Shown piece after piece: positions 7,364-38,618 of a stretch of 56,029 bases of DNA (positions are counted from its first letter, which is position 1; each line of letters begins with the position of its first letter). The position numbers and the translations under genes were made by a program. The notes beneath the pieces are model-generated. The model was not told where the DNA came from and searched no databases. It was given only the letters and a program-made list of their open reading frames with translations. The stretch is from Candidatus Hydrogenedens sp. (GTDB lineage: Bacteria > Hydrogenedentota > Hydrogenedentia > Hydrogenedentales > Hydrogenedentaceae), in the NCBI GenBank assembly GCA_049968235.1, contig JBMFRC010000021.1, forward strand, positions 1 through 56,029. The letters are read 5' to 3'.

Positions 7364-7522
7364 TATTTTAACATAAAACCTTAGTTATCAGGTGGAAGTA
7401 TTATATACTTTTTTTGTGATTTCATATAACTCAAATTATTCTTCAAGAAATAAACGATAGGATAGTCTTACCGTAAGTTAAAACCTTTTAAAAAAAAACA
7501 AGCAGACATATATATTAGAAAC

Positions 7523-8175
7523 CTATGAATAAATCATACATGTAAGGTATAGAGGGGGTGTAAATTGATAGAATAAACGAGGGCTTATAAGGGGAAGGAT
7601 TTTTACTATACTTTGACCTATCGTCTCCGCCGGGCTTTTGTTATTTAACGCTCGTTGCTTATGAATATAATTATAGCAATAAATATACGGGTTCAATTTG
7701 TCCATCAATTTTCTATAATCTGTGAAGTAATGTTGTTTTAATAATTCTGTTCTTCTACCATTGAAGTATTGCACTAAGCCATTCGTTTTGAGTGTATAGA
7801 TGCTGTCAGTGTTCTATAACGAGTTCCTGATAGCGATGGTCGAAGATATGTTTACTGGATGGTTGTTTTTCTGCCCCGGCAGAAGCGGTCAGTAAATTCC
7901 TTTCCGTTTTCAGGCAAGACGGTGTAAATTGGATACGGGCAGACTGCCCTCACCTCATCTAAAAACGCTTTAGCACTCTTTGCACTATGGTCATACTTCA
8001 GATAGAACATTGTTTGTAGTTTATGGGGTCGTGATGATTTATCTCTCAAGTCTTCTCGCTTCTTCCATTTCCATATCGTCCTTGTGCTCAGATGCAACCG
8101 TTTTGTAAATGCTGTCATAGGTTTTTTCAATTCATTAATCATCTTTCGCATTTGTAGGGTAGTTCTTGCATACAT
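7523..8175 (-). mobile_element. degraded IS481-family-like (rve integrase) transposase remnant, fragmented into two ORFs (7852-8175 and 7523-7774)
   Basis: ORF 7852-8175 has an HTH-like N-terminus (...LSTRTIWKWKKREDLRDKSSRPHKL, compare IS481 ISRQTFYKWxxRY...DRSRRPH). It then jumps directly into the end of an rve core (...FLDEVRAVCPYPIYTVLPENGKEFTDRF). ORF 7523-7774 carries the transposase C-terminus (...YNYIHKQRALNNKSPAE, compare YNxxRPHsALggktP). The DDE core is mostly deleted and the reading frame is broken, so this is a pseudogenised IS copy. Confidence 0.55.
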
Positions 8176-8298
8176 TTAATACTAAATTGTAGGCATATCT
8201 TTACCCTTCTTACTTTTCTAATATTATCTGTTTTACCCTATTTTTTATCCCTTATTGGAACATATTTTACATACTATTGATATTGAACAAATAATGCT

Positions 8299-17617: not shown

Positions 17618-18384
17618 AATGAGACCTCTGAACAATTCGTGTAAGATGTTATGGTATAAGTTATATATGTTTTTACGAGATAAAATCCCGATGAGAAATT
17701 AACATACAAAAGTCTGTATCTCTACTTTTATCCATTTTATTTGCTATTTTCTGTCAGGTTTTTTATTTTCTTATTACCTATGTATATCTTTCCTCTTGCA
17801 CCCTTAATTCCCCATACATCCGCTTCAAATTATATGCAATCGTTAACAGGAAATGATATACTCCTCTCTATATGCACCTCTGTATCCTCTGTGCTCCTCC
17901 GTGTCCTCCGTAGTGAAAAAGATATAATCAACCAGAGAGACACAGAGAAATTATAACTCACTGCTCAACAATACATACAATAGTAAGGACAAAAGCCTCC
18001 ATTATTCCCAGTTCGCTTTATATACTCCTTTCTCTATTATGCACCTCTGCTCAAATTTCCTTCCATTCCATCACTTCTTGCATCTGCCTCAAAAAATATC
18101 TACGACAGATCAGTTTCTGATAGAACATCTCGTAATCTACAAAATCTCTTTGTTCTATCTCTATCTATAAAACTTATTTCCTCCATCTCTTATATACCAT
18201 ACTGCGAGGACCTTTCTTCATTTTTAGTTTTTCCTTGCTTTGTTATTCAAACCAATACAATACCTCTACAATATGTATATGCTATATCCATACACTTCTT
18301 TTTCTCATCTCGTCTCATCTTTTCCTGCCTACTTCTCGTATAAAACATATCTCATTAACCATATGATTTATCCAGAGGTCTCAG
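17618..18384 (+). repeat. MITE-like non-coding element, copy A (~767 bp), with 16-bp terminal inverted repeats TGAGACCTCTGAACAA / TTATCCAGAGGTCTCA
   Basis: Left terminus aaTGAGACCTCTGAACAAttcgtg at 17618. Right terminus ttTATCCAGAGGTCTCAgat ends at 18384. The interior is roughly 80% identical, with indels, to the reverse complement of 37918-38618. For example, cactgctcaacaatacatacaatagtaaggac and ctcttgcatctgcctcaaaa are shared. No conserved ORF is present and the top strand is pyrimidine-rich. Confidence 0.75.
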
Positions 18385-18538
18385 ATATGGATTTTGCAAA
18401 TGAATGCGAAGGATTTTTTCATCTATTAATTCTTTTTTTTCTGTCTCTCTGGTCCCATAACACGGATACGATAGTTATACACATATTTGCCCCCATGGAG
18501 GACAGTATTAATTAAACCTTTGTTTCCTGTTTCCCCCC

Positions 18539-20395
18539 TTATAATCCAGGGCAGTAGCGGTCTTCGCCGTCTGGACAAGGATGGTAGCCACCTATGTTAA
18601 AGTACTGGATTAACCGCAATAATTCGGATAGGTTTATCATCCAATCCTGAGGATTATAGTCTGATGCATGCGGTATGCAACTCTTATCCCCTTCAAATCC
18701 AGGAATATAGCCATCCTCTGACTCCTCTCCCGGCAAGGCACAATGATACCCTTGCATATTGAAAAACTGTATCACGCGTAATAACTCGGGTAGATTTATC
18801 TGCCAATCTCCATTTTGGTCTGCACTATGTGATGGTGTTTCCCCCTCGCCTTCAGTCATTCCTTCGCCTTCTACTGCTCCTTCCACGATACCTTCGCCAT
18901 CAGCACTACCTTCGGATATCCCTTCCGTTGTACCTTCGACGGTGCCTTCAACTGTCCCTTCGCCATCAGGGGTTCCTTCGAGAGTCCCTTCTGCGATACC
19001 TTCGCCTTCCATTACTCCTTCACCCTCGATAATTCCTTCGCCTTCAAAACTACCTTCGGATATACCTTCTGTGGTGCCTTCAAATGTCCCTTCGCCATCA
19101 GGGGTTCCTTCGCCTTCGGGTAAGGCAAGACAATCTGTTGGAATTTCGTCCGTATTACGGTTATCAACTGGGTCTAAATAATTCGGAATACCATCATTAT
19201 CTGAATCCCATGGTAACGGGTCATATACATCCCGAATGAGGTCGCAATCGTCGTCTAAATCATCCGGGTCCATCCAACCATCTTCATCAAGGTCGTCATA
19301 AGGTCGCATATATGGTGTAATTCCGATATCTGTGGTAAATATAAACTGTCCATTAGAAAAGTTAATCTCAATAAAGTATGCTTTCCACCCTGTTTCAGGT
19401 GGTATTACTGTTGCAAGATATGTTTTTGAACCGGGTGATGTTTCGCTTAAATTAGAAGATGTCCATGTTGGTCCTGCTCCATCGTAATAGCGGAAATCAC
19501 GAGCATTTGGATTTAGAGCCTGCCATAACTTTACAGAAGTTGGATTTGTTGCCACCTGCACCTGAATACTCCCATCGGGTAAAAATTGCCAGGAATAGTT
19601 AGGTCTGCTTCCGCCACTTGTAACAGAGTTAAAATAGGTAATAAGAGCAATAATACTATTGTAATCACTGGTTAGATTTTCCAGACTATGCCCCGAATTG
19701 GGGACATATCTTAAACGCTTTTCGCCGGGCAGTTCATTGTAATAAAAACGGGAAGAATCGGGTAGGAAAAATTCATCTCCACTGGCATTGATTATAAATT
19801 TTGGCATTGTATAGTTATTCAGGTAAGAATAGGGGTCTACAATCTGTCTCAGGGCATATCCTCCGGGGGTACTCATTCGTTCAAATATATGCAATTCATT
19901 ATAAGGGGTTAATCTCTCTGAGAAGAAGCCATAACATTTGTATTGATGGTCCATCTGAACATTCATCTTAAGGACATCAATTACAATGGGGACAATGGCA
20001 ATGACTCGTGAATCAACCGCTCCCGTTAGCCAAGTAGTCCAACCTCGTTTGGATGCACCCCCAATGACAAAACCACTTATTGTTTTGCCATGATTATTTA
20101 ATACAATCTCTTCGATAGTGTCCATGGCACGGACAGCACTTTTTACCATCGGCAAAAGGACAGGCCAGTAAGGGTCTGGTGTCCCTGCATTATAAGTTTG
20201 CAAATATTTATCAAAACTGTAAGCAATAATTTGGTCCTCTGTCCGACTAAGAGTCTCGTCTTTGAAAAGAAGCGGTTGATTGGGAACCTGTTCAAGTAAT
20301 GCAACAGGAGCACCGGTTAATATTGCAACATACTGAGCATAATCCCGAAGGTTAGTGGCGGAGGAGCCGTTGTTTCCTCCGGATATTATCAACAA
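18539..20395 (-). CDS. PhoPQ-activated pathogenicity-related (PqaA-family, alpha/beta-hydrolase-like) secreted protein with TSP3-like Ca-binding repeats, an (EGx)n linker and two C-terminal dockerin-like repeats; main body downstream of an in-frame TGA
   Basis: VIGGASKRGWTTWLTGAVD is the PqaA-family signature. Then come DDLDEDGWMDPDDLDDDCDL...DSDNDGIPNYLDPVDN (thrombospondin-type-3-like). About 35 Glu-Gly-x triplets follow, encoded by a 9-nt periodic DNA repeat at 18840-19140. Two dockerin-like segments close the protein: DQNGDWQINLPELLRVIQFFN and DYNPQDWMINLSELLRLIQYFN. The same frame continues upstream through TGA at 20447-20449 into ORF 20447-20671. Confidence 0.6.
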   Translation of the reverse strand: MLIISGGNNGSSATNLRDYAQYVAILTGAPVALLEQVPNQPLLFKDETLSRTEDQIIAYSFDKYLQTYNAGTPDPYWPVLLPMVKSAVRAMDTIEEIVLNNHGKTISGFVIGGASKRGWTTWLTGAVDSRVIAIVPIVIDVLKMNVQMDHQYKCYGFFSERLTPYNELHIFERMSTPGGYALRQIVDPYSYLNNYTMPKFIINASGDEFFLPDSSRFYYNELPGEKRLRYVPNSGHSLENLTSDYNSIIALITYFNSVTSGGSRPNYSWQFLPDGSIQVQVATNPTSVKLWQALNPNARDFRYYDGAGPTWTSSNLSETSPGSKTYLATVIPPETGWKAYFIEINFSNGQFIFTTDIGITPYMRPYDDLDEDGWMDPDDLDDDCDLIRDVYDPLPWDSDNDGIPNYLDPVDNRNTDEIPTDCLALPEGEGTPDGEGTFEGTTEGISEGSFEGEGIIEGEGVMEGEGIAEGTLEGTPDGEGTVEGTVEGTTEGISEGSADGEGIVEGAVEGEGMTEGEGETPSHSADQNGDWQINLPELLRVIQFFNMQGYHCALPGEESEDGYIPGFEGDKSCIPHASDYNPQDWMINLSELLRLIQYFNIGGYHPCPDGEDRYCPGL

Positions 20396-36917: not shown

Positions 36918-37916
36918 ATGAATAGGAATACTATTTTGCTTATATTATTCTTCGGAATTATTTGTAATTTGCCCTGCCAATCGTATCATACCTTGATCGA
37001 CTTACATACCGCACCGGGATGGGCTTCGGAAAATGGTGGGACAACAGGCGGAGGAAAATCAAAACCTACTACAATTAAAACGATAGAAGAACTTCAAACT
37101 CTGGTCTCTACAGAAGAACCACAAACAATACTTGTAAGTGGGACCATGGGAGCAGGACTTTCTACAAAAATAAAAGTAAACTCAAACAAGACTATCATGG
37201 GTTTAGACAAGGCACTTATAAAAGGCAGTTTTACCATTAAAGATGCAAAAAACATTATCATCCGGAATTTGACGATTGAGGGTCCCGGTGCCATTGATGT
37301 GAATGCTCCATACTGTATTACAATAGATAATTCAACAAATATATGGTTAGACCATCTTGATATATACGATGGTTAGGATGGAAATGTTGATATTGTTAAT
37401 GGTTCTAACTACATTACCATATCATGGTGCAAGTTCCATTATACTTCTGCTTCGAAAAATCATAAATTGTCAACACTCATTGGTAATTCAGATGAAAAAA
37501 TATCCGACAGAGGAAAATTGAAAACTACAATGGTATATAACTGATGGGCAGAAGGCGTTGATTCGCGTACGCCAAGAGTTCGCTTTGGACAGGTGCATGT
37601 CATAAACAATCTCTACACATGCACAGAAAATGATTACTGCATTCTGGCAGGCATGGAAGCAAACTTGAGAATCGAATATAATTTATTTGTAAATGTAAGA
37701 GAACCTATCAATTTATCTCAAAAAACATTTACTGCTGTTAGCGACTCAAACAATAAATTCCTATCAGTCAAAGGGAACACTGAGGGAAAAGGAGACGCCT
37801 TTAAGCCCCCCTATAATATAACCATTATCCCATTAAATAAATTAGAAATGATTATAAAAAAGTATGCAGGAGCCAATCTTCCTCATATTAAAAACGAAAT
37901 ATTCTGTGAACAATAG
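36918..37916 (+). pseudogene. pectate lyase (polysaccharide lyase family 1) with two in-frame nonsense codons (TAG 37374-37376, TGA 37542-37544) and no frameshift
   Basis: Signal peptide, then GWASENGGTTGGGKS...ILVSGTM...IKVNSNKTIMGL...IIRNLTIEG...IWLDHLDIYDG*DGNVDIVNGSNYITISWCKFHYTSASKNHKLSTLIGNSDEKISDRGKLKTTMVYN*WAEGVDSRTPRVRFGQVHVINNLYT.... This closely parallels Bacillus or Erwinia PL1 motifs (GYASxNGGTTGG, vWIDHxxfs...DGxxDIkxgSdyVTvSwn.F..HdKxmLiGhSD, RMPRVRFGqvHvyNNYY). The track reports only the flanking pieces 36918-37376 and 37593-37916. Confidence 0.7.
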
Positions 37917-37917
37917 A

Positions 37918-38618
37918 ATGAGACCTCTGAATAAGTCATTCGAGTTAAGTAGTATATTTATATAGGGGAAGAGGATGGGTGGAAAATGAAACGAGAAGAG
38001 GGAAAAGTGGTATATATATAGCAGAAGTATTGGGGGATGAATGACAAAACAAGGAAGAACTAAAAATAAAGAAAGGTCAACGCAGTATGGTATATAAGGG
38101 ATGGAGGGAATAAGTTTTATAGATAGAGATAGAGCAAATAGATTTTATATATTATGTGATGTCCTATCATAAACCGCCCCGTCGTAGACGTCTTTTGAGG
38201 CAGATGCAAGAGGTAATACCATAAAGGAATTTTGAGCAGAGGTGCGTATAGAGAAGAGTATATAAAGTAAACTGGGAAGAACGGAGACTTCCATCTTTAC
38301 TATTGTGTGCATTGTTGAGCAGTGAGTGATGATTTCTTTATATTCTCTTTGCAGGGAATTTAATCGGTGGCGGTAAAACGATTTTTTTCTACGTTTCTCT
38401 ATGTCTTCTATGGTGATTATATTTTTAATTCCAAAGGGAGCAAAAGGAGAAATATGCATAGACAAAAAAGATAGAAAAATAGACAGAAAATAACAAATAA
38501 AATGGGTAATTTTAGAGATACAGAATTTTGTATTTTAATTTCTCACCGTGATTTTATCTCATAAAAACATATATAACTTATACCCTTACCTCTTACACCA
38601 CTTGTTCAGAGGTCTCAG
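37918..38618 (-). repeat. MITE-like non-coding element, copy B (~701 bp), inverted relative to copy A; same TIRs TGAGACCTCTGAAYAA
   Basis: Left terminus aaTGAGACCTCTGAATAAgtc at 37918, 1 bp after the PL1 stop. Right terminus cttgTTCAGAGGTCTCAgtt at 38603-38618. The reverse complement aligns with 17618-18384, for example gtataagttatatatgtttttatgagataaaatcacggtgagaaatt versus gtataagttatatatgtttttacgagataaaatcccgatgagaaatt. Confidence 0.75.

What the first reader, a model, noticed from the sequence alone, without database searches (positions are those of the whole stretch)
17618..18384. Undescribed ~0.7-0.8 kb non-coding element with 16-bp terminal inverted repeats (TGAGACCTCTGAAYAA), copy A
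All four termini in the window share TGAGACCTCTGAA(C/T)AA. These are 17618 (aaTGAGACCTCTGAACAA), the end at 18384 (reverse complement tcTGAGACCTCTGGATAA), 37918 and 38618. The interior is roughly 80% conserved between the two copies but with many indels. It has no conserved ORF; the track ORFs 17741-17956 and 18240-18515 versus 38145-38465 are non-homologous. One strand is strongly pyrimidine-rich. This looks like a miniature inverted-repeat transposable element (MITE), or a mobile structured RNA, whose autonomous partner is not in the window. The decayed IS481-like transposase at 7.5-8.2 kb is the only transposase nearby. No target-site duplication is obvious.
Basis: seen in the sequence. Interest (0 to 1): 0.75.

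Follow-up and report, generated by a model that had tools for sequence, protein, structure and literature searches.

The report
Two decayed IS5-family insertion sequence relics
The two 0.7-kb repeats are worn-out copies of an ordinary IS5-family jumping gene that lost the middle of its transposase gene but kept its 16-bp ends, so this is a routine transposon relic and not a new kind of element.

Summary
Copy A (17620-18383) and copy B (37919-38617) are about 83% identical and lie in opposite orientation. Both are bounded by TGAGACCTCTGRAYAA inverted repeats, and similarity stops at those repeats.

The element is not undescribed. The same 16-nt terminus bounds intact IS5-family insertion sequences of about 1.2 kb. 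Examples are a 1202-bp copy in a complete Planctomycetota genome and multicopy elements in Spirochaetota MAGs, whose transposase matches NCBIfam IS5_4 and Pfam DUF772 + DDE_Tnp_1. The same terminus also bounds short 123-279-bp MITEs in several phyla.

The purine-rich strand of both window copies still carries a decayed transposase N-terminus: hhalign P 5e-7 and 2.5e-6, and 0 of 1000 shuffles reach the real HMM score. Copy A also keeps the C-terminal AYNLKRM motif. Roughly residues 73-300, which include the DDE catalytic domain, are missing from both copies. The deleted derivative was therefore itself copied, presumably by a transposase supplied in trans.

There is no Rfam match and no unusual internal RNA folding. 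No clean target-site duplication was found (A 2 of 3 bases, B none). No further copies or empty sites could be retrieved.

Verdict: non-autonomous, internally deleted IS5-family relics in a Candidatus Hydrogenedens MAG. This is a new member of a known kind and of low interest.

The parts
17620..18383 (-). Copy A: internally deleted, decayed IS5-family element (764 bp). The transposase-sense strand is the minus strand.
   Evidence: TIR search; alignment to copy B; 100% identical in same-species MAG contig L065
18368..18383 (-). Copy A left (transposase-proximal) terminal inverted repeat, TGAGACCTCTGGATAA
   Evidence: The first 21-22 nt are 91-95% identical to the left end of the intact IS in L018.
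17620..17635 (+). Copy A right (transposase-distal) terminal inverted repeat, TGAGACCTCTGAACAA
17954..18152 (-). Copy A remnant of the transposase N-terminus (about aa 2-72), with a frameshift and stop codons: QRDFVDYEMFYQKLICRRYFLRQMQEVMEWKEI / FEQRCIIEKGVYKANWE / WRLLSLLLYVLLSSEL
   Evidence: tblastn; HMM; hhalign prob 88.8%, P 2.5e-6; coordinates
17817..17855 (-). Copy A remnant of the transposase C-terminal motif HFLLTIAYNLKRM. Compare ...YLLAAAYNLKRM in P0076 and IAAAYNIKR in L018.
   Evidence: tblastn E 0.05-0.3 taken singly but colinear with the N-terminal remnant; motif comparison
37919..38617 (+). Copy B: internally deleted, decayed IS5-family element (699 bp). The transposase-sense strand is the plus strand.
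   Evidence: Same-species MAG contigs L001 and L002 are identical over the parts they cover and begin inside it.
37919..37934 (+). Copy B left terminal inverted repeat, TGAGACCTCTGAATAA
   Evidence: identical to the left end of the Spirochaetota IS (L025) and of L018
38602..38617 (-). Copy B right terminal inverted repeat, TGAGACCTCTGAACAA
38135..38326 (+). Copy B remnant of the transposase N-terminus (about aa 2-72) with in-frame stops: QIDFIYYVMSYHKPPRRRRLLRQMQEVIP*RNFEQRCV*RRVYKVNWEERRLPSLLLCALLSSE
   Evidence: tblastn best E 5e-5; HMM; hhalign prob 92.5%, P 4.9e-7; coordinates
17618..17620 (.). Candidate decayed 3-bp target-site duplication of copy A. AAT here and GAT at 18384-18386 match at 2 of 3 bases. 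AAT is the preferred target of intact relatives.
   Evidence: inconclusive

Best explanation
Both repeats are relics of one IS5-family (IS5-group) insertion sequence in a Candidatus Hydrogenedens genome.

The ancestor was an IS of about 1.2 kb. It had 16-bp terminal inverted repeats, (T)GAGACCTCTGAAYAA, and a DDE transposase of about 325 aa.

An internal deletion removed roughly codons 73-300, which include the whole DDE catalytic domain. What remained was the two ends, the 5' leader, the first ~70 codons, the last ~20 codons and the 3' untranslated part.

That defective derivative kept both transposase-binding ends. It was therefore still a substrate for a full-length relative's transposase acting in trans, by cut-and-paste with a 3-bp duplication as in the intact relatives. 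It was copied to at least two intergenic sites.

The copies have since diverged by about 17%, acquired private stops, frameshifts and indels, and are most likely inert today.

The 'pyrimidine-rich strand' is simply the antisense strand of the former transposase gene.

Shown here: the repeat itself, the identity of its ends with those of intact IS5-family elements, the transposase remnants and the shared deletion. Inferred: mobilisation in trans, the 3-bp duplication at these two sites, and present inactivity.
For: 1. TIR identity with autonomous elements.
- A genome-collection scan with the terminus found 11 contig ends in one Spirochaetota MAG and 4 in another carrying the same end.
- In L025 the end is followed at +103 by an ORF that is an IS5-family transposase (PF05598 + PF01609). 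Its relative P0001 scores 232 bits against NCBIfam NF033581 transpos_IS5_4, whose cutoff is 140.
- A complete 1202-bp IS in Planctomycetota strain ZRK32 (L018 2200-3401) has TGAGACCTCTGAATAA at one end and TGAGACCTCTGAATAG at the other, and an intact IS5 transposase.
- Seven insertions of a 1211-bp relative (L072-L078) show TGAGCCCTCTGAACAA ends and AAT...AAT flanks.

2. Transposase remnants inside the window copies.
- tblastn with 120 relatives hits aa 2-47 at homologous positions of both copies, on the strand expected from the TIR polarity.
- A subfamily HMM run against the six-frame translation of the whole window hits only these two places at i-E below 0.03.
- Real scores are 9.2 and 10.3 bits. 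The best of 1000 dinucleotide shuffles reached 7.7 and 4.4.
- hhalign gives P 2.5e-6 and 4.9e-7.
- The C-terminal AYNLKRM motif is colinear in copy A.

3. Both copies align colinearly across the deletion junction, so the deletion predates their separation.

4. Similarity ends exactly at the TIRs and the flanks are unrelated.

5. The TIRs are better conserved than the interior: 1 difference in 32 positions against 17% overall, binomial p 0.02.

6. The sense strand is 0.59-0.61 purine, matching intact relatives at 0.55-0.62.

7. Short MITEs with the same TIR pair and 3-bp TSDs exist in other phyla, so this IS subgroup does spawn non-autonomous derivatives.
Against: - No clean target-site duplication. 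A matches 2 of 3 bases (AAT/GAT) and B has none.
- Only two copies were seen.
- No autonomous partner from the same genome could be retrieved, because the genome is not in the searchable genome collection.
- A metagenome scan with the right-end pattern gave only a chance hit. A protein search with spurious-ORF translations of the element gave nothing.
- No clean empty site was found. Related species lack copy B upstream of the DUF1559 gene, but the upstream context differs.
- The transposase remnants are weak, at 27-33% identity over about 50 aa. General family models (Pfam, NCBIfam) do not detect them.
- The 5' leader is about 215 nt, against 83-94 nt in intact relatives. This is unexplained.
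Confidence: 0.85

Rival explanations
1. The 0.7-kb unit is a still-active non-autonomous family (an oversized MITE) in Hydrogenedentota. It would have many more copies in the genome and be currently mobilised by a resident IS5-family transposase.
For: - The internal deletion is shared, so the derivative has transposed at least once.
- The TIRs are nearly perfect while the interior has diverged 17%.
- Contigs of two same-species short-read MAGs begin inside copy B or end 21 nt after copy A, as happens at multicopy repeats.
Against: - The two copies differ by 17%, with no near-identical pair, which points to old insertions.
- The same-species MAG carries copy A at the same site with 100% identity, so there is no polymorphism.
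- Those MAGs are highly fragmented, with contigs of 4-9 kb, so contig breaks are weak evidence.
- No further copies turned up in the metagenome scan or the protein-word search.
Confidence: 0.1
2. It is a structured non-coding RNA gene, or a mobile RNA element, that happens to be flanked by inverted repeats.
For: - The full-length purine-rich strand of copy A folds with z = -8.
- Several blocks of 23-26 nt are identical between the copies.
- RNAalifold lists 8 pairs that changed on both sides.
Against: - There are no Rfam matches at gathering threshold or at E<=1.
- The strong z-score comes from pairing of the terminal and subterminal inverted repeats. The interiors score z -4.4 and -2.5, against -3.0 and -3.5 for coding controls.
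- With two sequences the covariation count is not informative.
- The interior is demonstrably a decayed protein-coding gene.
- There is no promoter-like enrichment.
Confidence: 0.03
3. The two regions are a plain segmental duplication or recombination product and not a transposition product.
For: Only two copies are known, and there is no convincing TSD.
Against: - Homology ends to the base at 16-bp inverted repeats.
- Those repeats are the ends of a known IS family.
- The copies are inverted and lie in unrelated intergenic contexts 20 kb apart.
- Swapping flanks, as an inversion between the copies would do, does not restore TSDs either (worked out by hand from the flanks).
Confidence: 0.02

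Closest known systems
IS5 family insertion sequences, IS5 group (NCBIfam NF033581 transpos_IS5_4 type). Intact relatives: the 1202-bp IS in Planctomycetota bacterium ZRK32 (CP066225.1; L018 2200-3401) and the ~1.21-1.26-kb elements of Spirochaetota MAGs (L025, L058, L061, L072-L078). The nearest named element found in plasmids is ISPa41, at 34% aa identity to P0001.
   Same: - The 16-nt termini are identical or nearly so, (T)GAGACCTCTGAAYAA.
- The 3' half, GAATAAG, is also shared with E. coli IS5's GGAAGGTGCGAATAAG (from memory, not tested here).
- The polarity is the same: left end, leader, transposase.
- Remnants of the same transposase N-terminus and C-terminal AYNLKRM motif are present.
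- The 3' untranslated length is similar.
- The sense strand is purine-rich in both.
   Different: - The window copies lack about 230 codons, including the DUF772 core and the DDE domain.
- They have no start codon and carry stops and frameshifts.
- They are 699 and 764 bp, against about 1.2 kb.
- The leader is about 130 nt longer.
- The 3-bp AAT duplication of intact relatives is not cleanly present.
Prokaryotic MITEs derived from insertion sequences. Examples with this same TIR pair: 123-279-bp elements at L013 2418-2581, L029 823-1049, L033 1565-1706, L036 7035-7195 and L049 7016-7138.
   Same: Terminal inverted repeats of an IS family, no transposase, intergenic location and dependence on a transposase supplied in trans.
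   Different: - Size is 699-764 bp, against the usual 50-500 bp (PMC10969869).
- The interior is still recognisable as a transposase pseudogene, whereas those short MITEs retain little more than the TIRs.
- Only two diverged copies are known.
- TSDs are not preserved.

Membership tests
IS5 family insertion sequence (autonomous) | Terminal inverted repeats of the family or subgroup | tested here: met
   All four termini match the ends of intact IS5-family elements at 15-16 of 16 positions (L018, L025, L061).
IS5 family insertion sequence (autonomous) | Encodes an intact DDE transposase (DUF772 + DDE_Tnp_1) | tested here: not met
   No ORF is conserved. Pfam and NCBIfam find nothing in the frame-repaired peptides. 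Only remnants of the N-terminal ~70 aa and a C-terminal motif survive.
IS5 family insertion sequence (autonomous) | Interior homologous to IS5-family transposase genes (descent from the family) | tested here: met
   hhalign P 2.5e-6 and 4.9e-7. 0 of 1000 shuffles reach the real HMM scores. These are the only two HMM hits below i-E 0.03 in the six-frame window.
IS5 family insertion sequence (autonomous) | Short target-site duplication (3 bp, mostly AAT, in this subgroup) | tested here: inconclusive
   In relatives, 6 of 7 P0135 insertions and 7 of 9 paired elements show 3-bp TSDs. In the window, A has AAT/GAT (2 of 3) and B has none.
MITE (miniature inverted-repeat transposable element) | TIRs matching an autonomous IS, with no transposase of its own | tested here: met
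MITE (miniature inverted-repeat transposable element) | Small size (about 50-500 bp, PMC10969869) | tested here: not met
   699 and 764 bp
MITE (miniature inverted-repeat transposable element) | Multiple dispersed copies with TSDs; empty sites in relatives | tested here: inconclusive
   Two dispersed copies share one deletion. No more were found in the metagenome or protein searches. No clean empty site was found. The source genome is not in the searchable collection.
MITE (miniature inverted-repeat transposable element) | An autonomous partner in the same genome | not testable with these tools
   The window has no IS5 transposase. Partners with identical ends exist in other phyla.
Known structured RNA family (Rfam) | Match to a covariance model, or folding beyond background | tested here: not met
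   No hits at gathering threshold or at E<=1. Interior z-scores are comparable to coding controls.

The most novel reading that the evidence does not exclude
The 0.7-kb deletion derivative may be a living, lineage-specific non-autonomous family in Hydrogenedentota, larger than classical MITEs. Under this reading its conserved blocks reflect selection for trans-mobilisation or a co-opted regulatory or RNA role near host genes such as the DUF1559 pilin-like gene downstream of copy B. Those blocks are the extended subterminal inverted repeats and a 25-nt leader block complementary to the right subterminal region.
Probability: 0.08. Interest if true: 0.3.

Novelty: new member of a known kind. Interest (0 to 1): 0.1.

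Why it matters
It matters little beyond annotation.

- These two intergenic stretches should be labelled as IS5-family relics and not as unknown non-coding elements.
- They explain why short-read assemblies of this species may break here.
- The analysis documents that the (T)GAGACCTCTGAAYAA IS5 subgroup is spread across Planctomycetota, Spirochaetota, Hydrogenedentota and other phyla. It spawns both short MITEs and larger deletion derivatives, and prefers a 3-bp AAT target.
- The copies are potential substrates for homologous recombination, which would invert the 20-kb segment between them.

Tried and rejected
- Rfam at gathering threshold on the whole window and at E<=1 on copy A: nothing.
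- Metagenome scan with the right-end pattern TGAGACCTCTGAAYAANTNGTGT: one chance hit inside a coding gene.
- Protein-database search with concatenated stop-free translations of the element, hoping to catch spurious ORFs called on other copies: no hit.
- Viral-contig scan with the TIR: 8 single matches consistent with chance; not inspected further.
- Search for an empty site through close homologues of the DUF1559 gene: relatives at 82-86% nt identity lack copy B, but their upstream region is not syntenic or alignable.
- Pfam and NCBIfam on frame-repaired pseudo-peptides: no hit, because the general models do not cover the N-terminal 50 aa.
- A possible third, solo left end at 7517-7540 (18 of 21 identical to copy A's left terminus): not significant in a local-alignment shuffle test, 18 and 35 of 300.
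- The relic at 7.5-8.2 kb as partner: rejected, because it is rve-type.
- An inversion between the two copies as an explanation for the missing TSDs: swapped flanks do not match either.
- RNA-structure reading: rejected after interior-only z-scores.

Full report
**Observation**

The pattern TGAGACCTCTGAAYAA occurs with 0-1 mismatch at exactly four places: 17620-17635 (+), 18368-18383 (-), 37919-37934 (+) and 38602-38617 (-). None of 100 dinucleotide-preserving shuffles gave as many matches. These sites delimit copy A (17620-18383, 764 bp) and copy B (37919-38617, 699 bp).

Copy A aligns with the reverse complement of copy B at 83% mean column identity, with several indels. Similarity begins and ends at the inverted repeats and the flanks are unrelated. 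No ORF is shared. The plus strand of A and the minus strand of B are pyrimidine-rich; the opposite strands are 59-61% purine.

**Context**

The window is an entire 56,029-bp contig of a Candidatus Hydrogenedens sp. MAG.

- Copy A lies between the 3' ends of two convergent genes: a 969-aa hypothetical protein and a PhoPQ_related protein.
- Copy B lies between a pectate-lyase pseudogene and a DUF1559 / prepilin-type gene.
- The best sigma-70-like promoter for the DUF1559 gene lies outside the element.

Two same-species short-read MAGs carry the same insertions with 100% identity. Their contigs start inside copy B (L001, L002) or end 21 nt after copy A (L065).

**Whose ends are these?**

A scan of one genome per species with TGAGACCTCTGRAYAANTNNT returned 47 loci. 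Most are single matches, close to the roughly 70 I estimated by hand from the collection size. The informative hits were:

- Eleven contig ends of one Spirochaetota MAG and four of another carry the same terminus followed by identical sequence. These are the classic signature of a collapsed multicopy repeat.
- In L025 the terminus is followed at +103 by an ORF whose relatives carry PF05598 (DUF772) and PF01609 (DDE_Tnp_1).
- The relative P0001 scores 232 bits on NCBIfam NF033581 'IS5 family transposase', whose cutoff is 140.
- The nearest named element in plasmids is ISPa41, IS5 family, at 34% identity.
- A complete 1202-bp IS with TGAGACCTCTGAATAA and TGAGACCTCTGAATAG ends and an intact IS5-type transposase sits in the finished genome of Planctomycetota strain ZRK32 (L018 2200-3401).
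- Seven insertions of a 1211-bp relative (P0135) have TGAGCCCTCTGAACAA ends and AAT...AAT flanks.
- Short 123-279-bp elements with the same TIR pair and 3-bp duplications (GAT, TTA, AAT, TCA, AAG) occur in Gammaproteobacteria, Ignavibacteria-like and other MAGs.

The termini are therefore those of a widespread IS5-family subgroup with a 3-bp, mostly AAT, target duplication. That subgroup is known to shed non-autonomous derivatives.

**What is the interior?**

tblastn with 120 relatives of the Spirochaetota transposase against the whole window gave its best hits at 38135-38272 (+) and 18143-18005 (-). These are homologous positions of the two copies, on the strand predicted by the left-end/right-end polarity, and they match residues 2-47 (best E 5e-5). 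A second colinear patch at 17858-17817 matches the C-terminal ...AYNLKRM motif.

Four further tests support this:

- An HMM of 43 near-full-length relatives, run against the six-frame translation of the window, reported only these two sites at i-E below 0.03.
- The real best-domain scores are 9.2 and 10.3 bits. They exceed all 1000 dinucleotide shuffles of each element, whose maxima were 7.7 and 4.4 with a mean of -2.8.
- Profile-sequence comparison (hhalign) of 14 intact transposases with frame-repaired peptides gave probabilities of 88.8% and 92.5%, with P 2.5e-6 and 4.9e-7 over residues 1-55.
- By eye the similarity continues to about residue 72: RRLPSLLLCALLSSE against GRP....LLGALFLQS.

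General Pfam and NCBIfam models do not detect the remnants. This is expected, because they start after residue 20-50 and the catalytic part is gone.

From the N-terminal remnant to the C-terminal motif there are only about 100-150 nt, where about 680 nt would be expected. Roughly residues 73-300 are therefore deleted, including DUF772 and the DDE domain.

Both copies align colinearly across this junction, so the deletion predates their separation. Each copy also has private lesions. The ATG is lost in both, and the stops and the frameshift differ between them.

The purine bias equals that of intact relatives on the coding strand, 0.55-0.62. This explains the 'pyrimidine-rich strand'.

**Mechanism**

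Shown:
- the ends are IS5-family ends;
- the interior is a decayed IS5 transposase gene lacking the catalytic domain;
- the deleted form exists at two unrelated loci.

Inferred:
- The derivative was mobilised in trans by a full-length relative, through DDE cut-and-paste at the 16-bp ends.
- The better conservation of the TIRs fits selection for transposability during the family's history. There is 1 difference in 32 homologous positions against 17% overall, binomial p 0.02.
- The copies are now probably inert, given 17% divergence, no clean TSD and identical occupancy in same-species MAGs.

**Target-site duplication**

Taking the relatives' model (AAT | TGAG...CTC | AAT), copy A has AAT (17618-17620) and GAT (18384-18386), a 2-of-3 match. 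Copy B has GAA on one side and AGT on the other, with no match. The result is inconclusive.

**Rival readings**

Structured RNA:
- There are no Rfam hits at gathering threshold or at E<=1.
- The z = -8 fold of the full purine strand of A is produced by pairing of the terminal and subterminal inverted repeats.
- The interiors score z -4.4 (A) and -2.5 (B), against -3.5 and -3.0 for two coding controls.
- RNAalifold on two sequences is uninformative.

Segmental duplication: excluded by the exact coincidence of the homology borders with the ends of a known IS family.

The relic at 7.5-8.2 kb: it is rve-type (rve_3 E 2.6e-4) and unrelated.

**Limits**

- The source genome is not in the searchable genome collection, since none of the window's own four termini were returned.
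- The single metagenome scan gave only a chance hit.
- A protein-word search for spurious ORFs of other copies found nothing.
- Relatives at 82-86% nt identity lack copy B, but their upstream region is not comparable.

Copy number, the resident partner and true empty sites therefore remain untested.

**Comparison and verdict**

The elements work like, and descend from, IS5-family insertion sequences. They fail the membership test for an autonomous IS because they have no transposase. They fail the size criterion for a MITE, 50-500 bp (PMC10969869). They are best described as internally deleted, non-autonomous IS5-family derivatives, now relics.

This is a new member of a well-known kind in a poorly studied phylum. 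It is useful for annotation but not surprising. Interest 0.1.

Noticed in passing
window 36918-37916 (+): The pectate-lyase gene immediately upstream of copy B is one continuous reading frame interrupted by two in-frame stops: TAG at 37375-37377 (..DIYDG*DGNVD..) and TGA at 37544-37546 (..MVYN*WAEG..). It is likely a pseudogene. A same-species MAG contig (L066) ends at about 37362.
   Followed up: partly
window 7560-8200 (-), and 7517-7540 (+): A decayed rve-type (IS3/IS481-like) integrase remnant with stops and frameshifts (rve_3 E 2.6e-4, below cutoff). Next to it, AGAAACCTATGAATAAATCATA resembles copy A's left terminus at 18 of 21 positions, but this is not significant in a shuffle test. 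It could be a solo end of a third IS5-type relic.
   Followed up: partly
L013 2418-2581; L029 823-1049; L033 1565-1706; L036 7035-7195; L049 7016-7138; L035 128-406; L012 7173-7307: Short (123-279 bp) elements bounded by the same TGAGACCTCTG... inverted repeats, mostly with 3-bp direct duplications. They occur in Oceanospirillales, Marinicella, Melioribacter, Alcanivoracaceae and other MAGs. They are genuine MITEs of this IS5 subgroup.
   Followed up: partly
L072-L078 (IS at e.g. L072 1118-2328): Seven insertions of a 1211-bp IS5-family element (transposase P0135, indexed in 116 blocks of the collection). All are flanked by AAT, and the first base of the 'TIR' varies (T, A or C). Several contigs share one flank but not the other, which suggests chimeric assembly across the repeat.
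   Followed up: partly
window 18154-18178 (A) / 38109-38134 (B), versus 17653-17675 / 38560-38585: The 5' leader of both copies is about 130 nt longer than in intact relatives (about 215 nt against 83-94 nt). It contains a ~25-nt block, identical in A and B, that is complementary to the right subterminal region (GGTATAAGTTATATATG...). Imperfect subterminal inverted repeats also extend to about 60 nt from each end. The origin is unexplained.
   Followed up: no
window 17856-17950: Copy A has a private insertion of about 50 nt containing a hairpin (CTCTGTG...CACAGAG) and a 27-nt internal direct repeat of the TATGCACCTCTG block at about 18030-18056.
   Followed up: no
window 18830-19117 (-): The PhoPQ_related protein gene (18539-20395) carries 18-nt tandem repeats encoding an EG(E/T)-rich low-complexity C-terminal region.
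   Followed up: no
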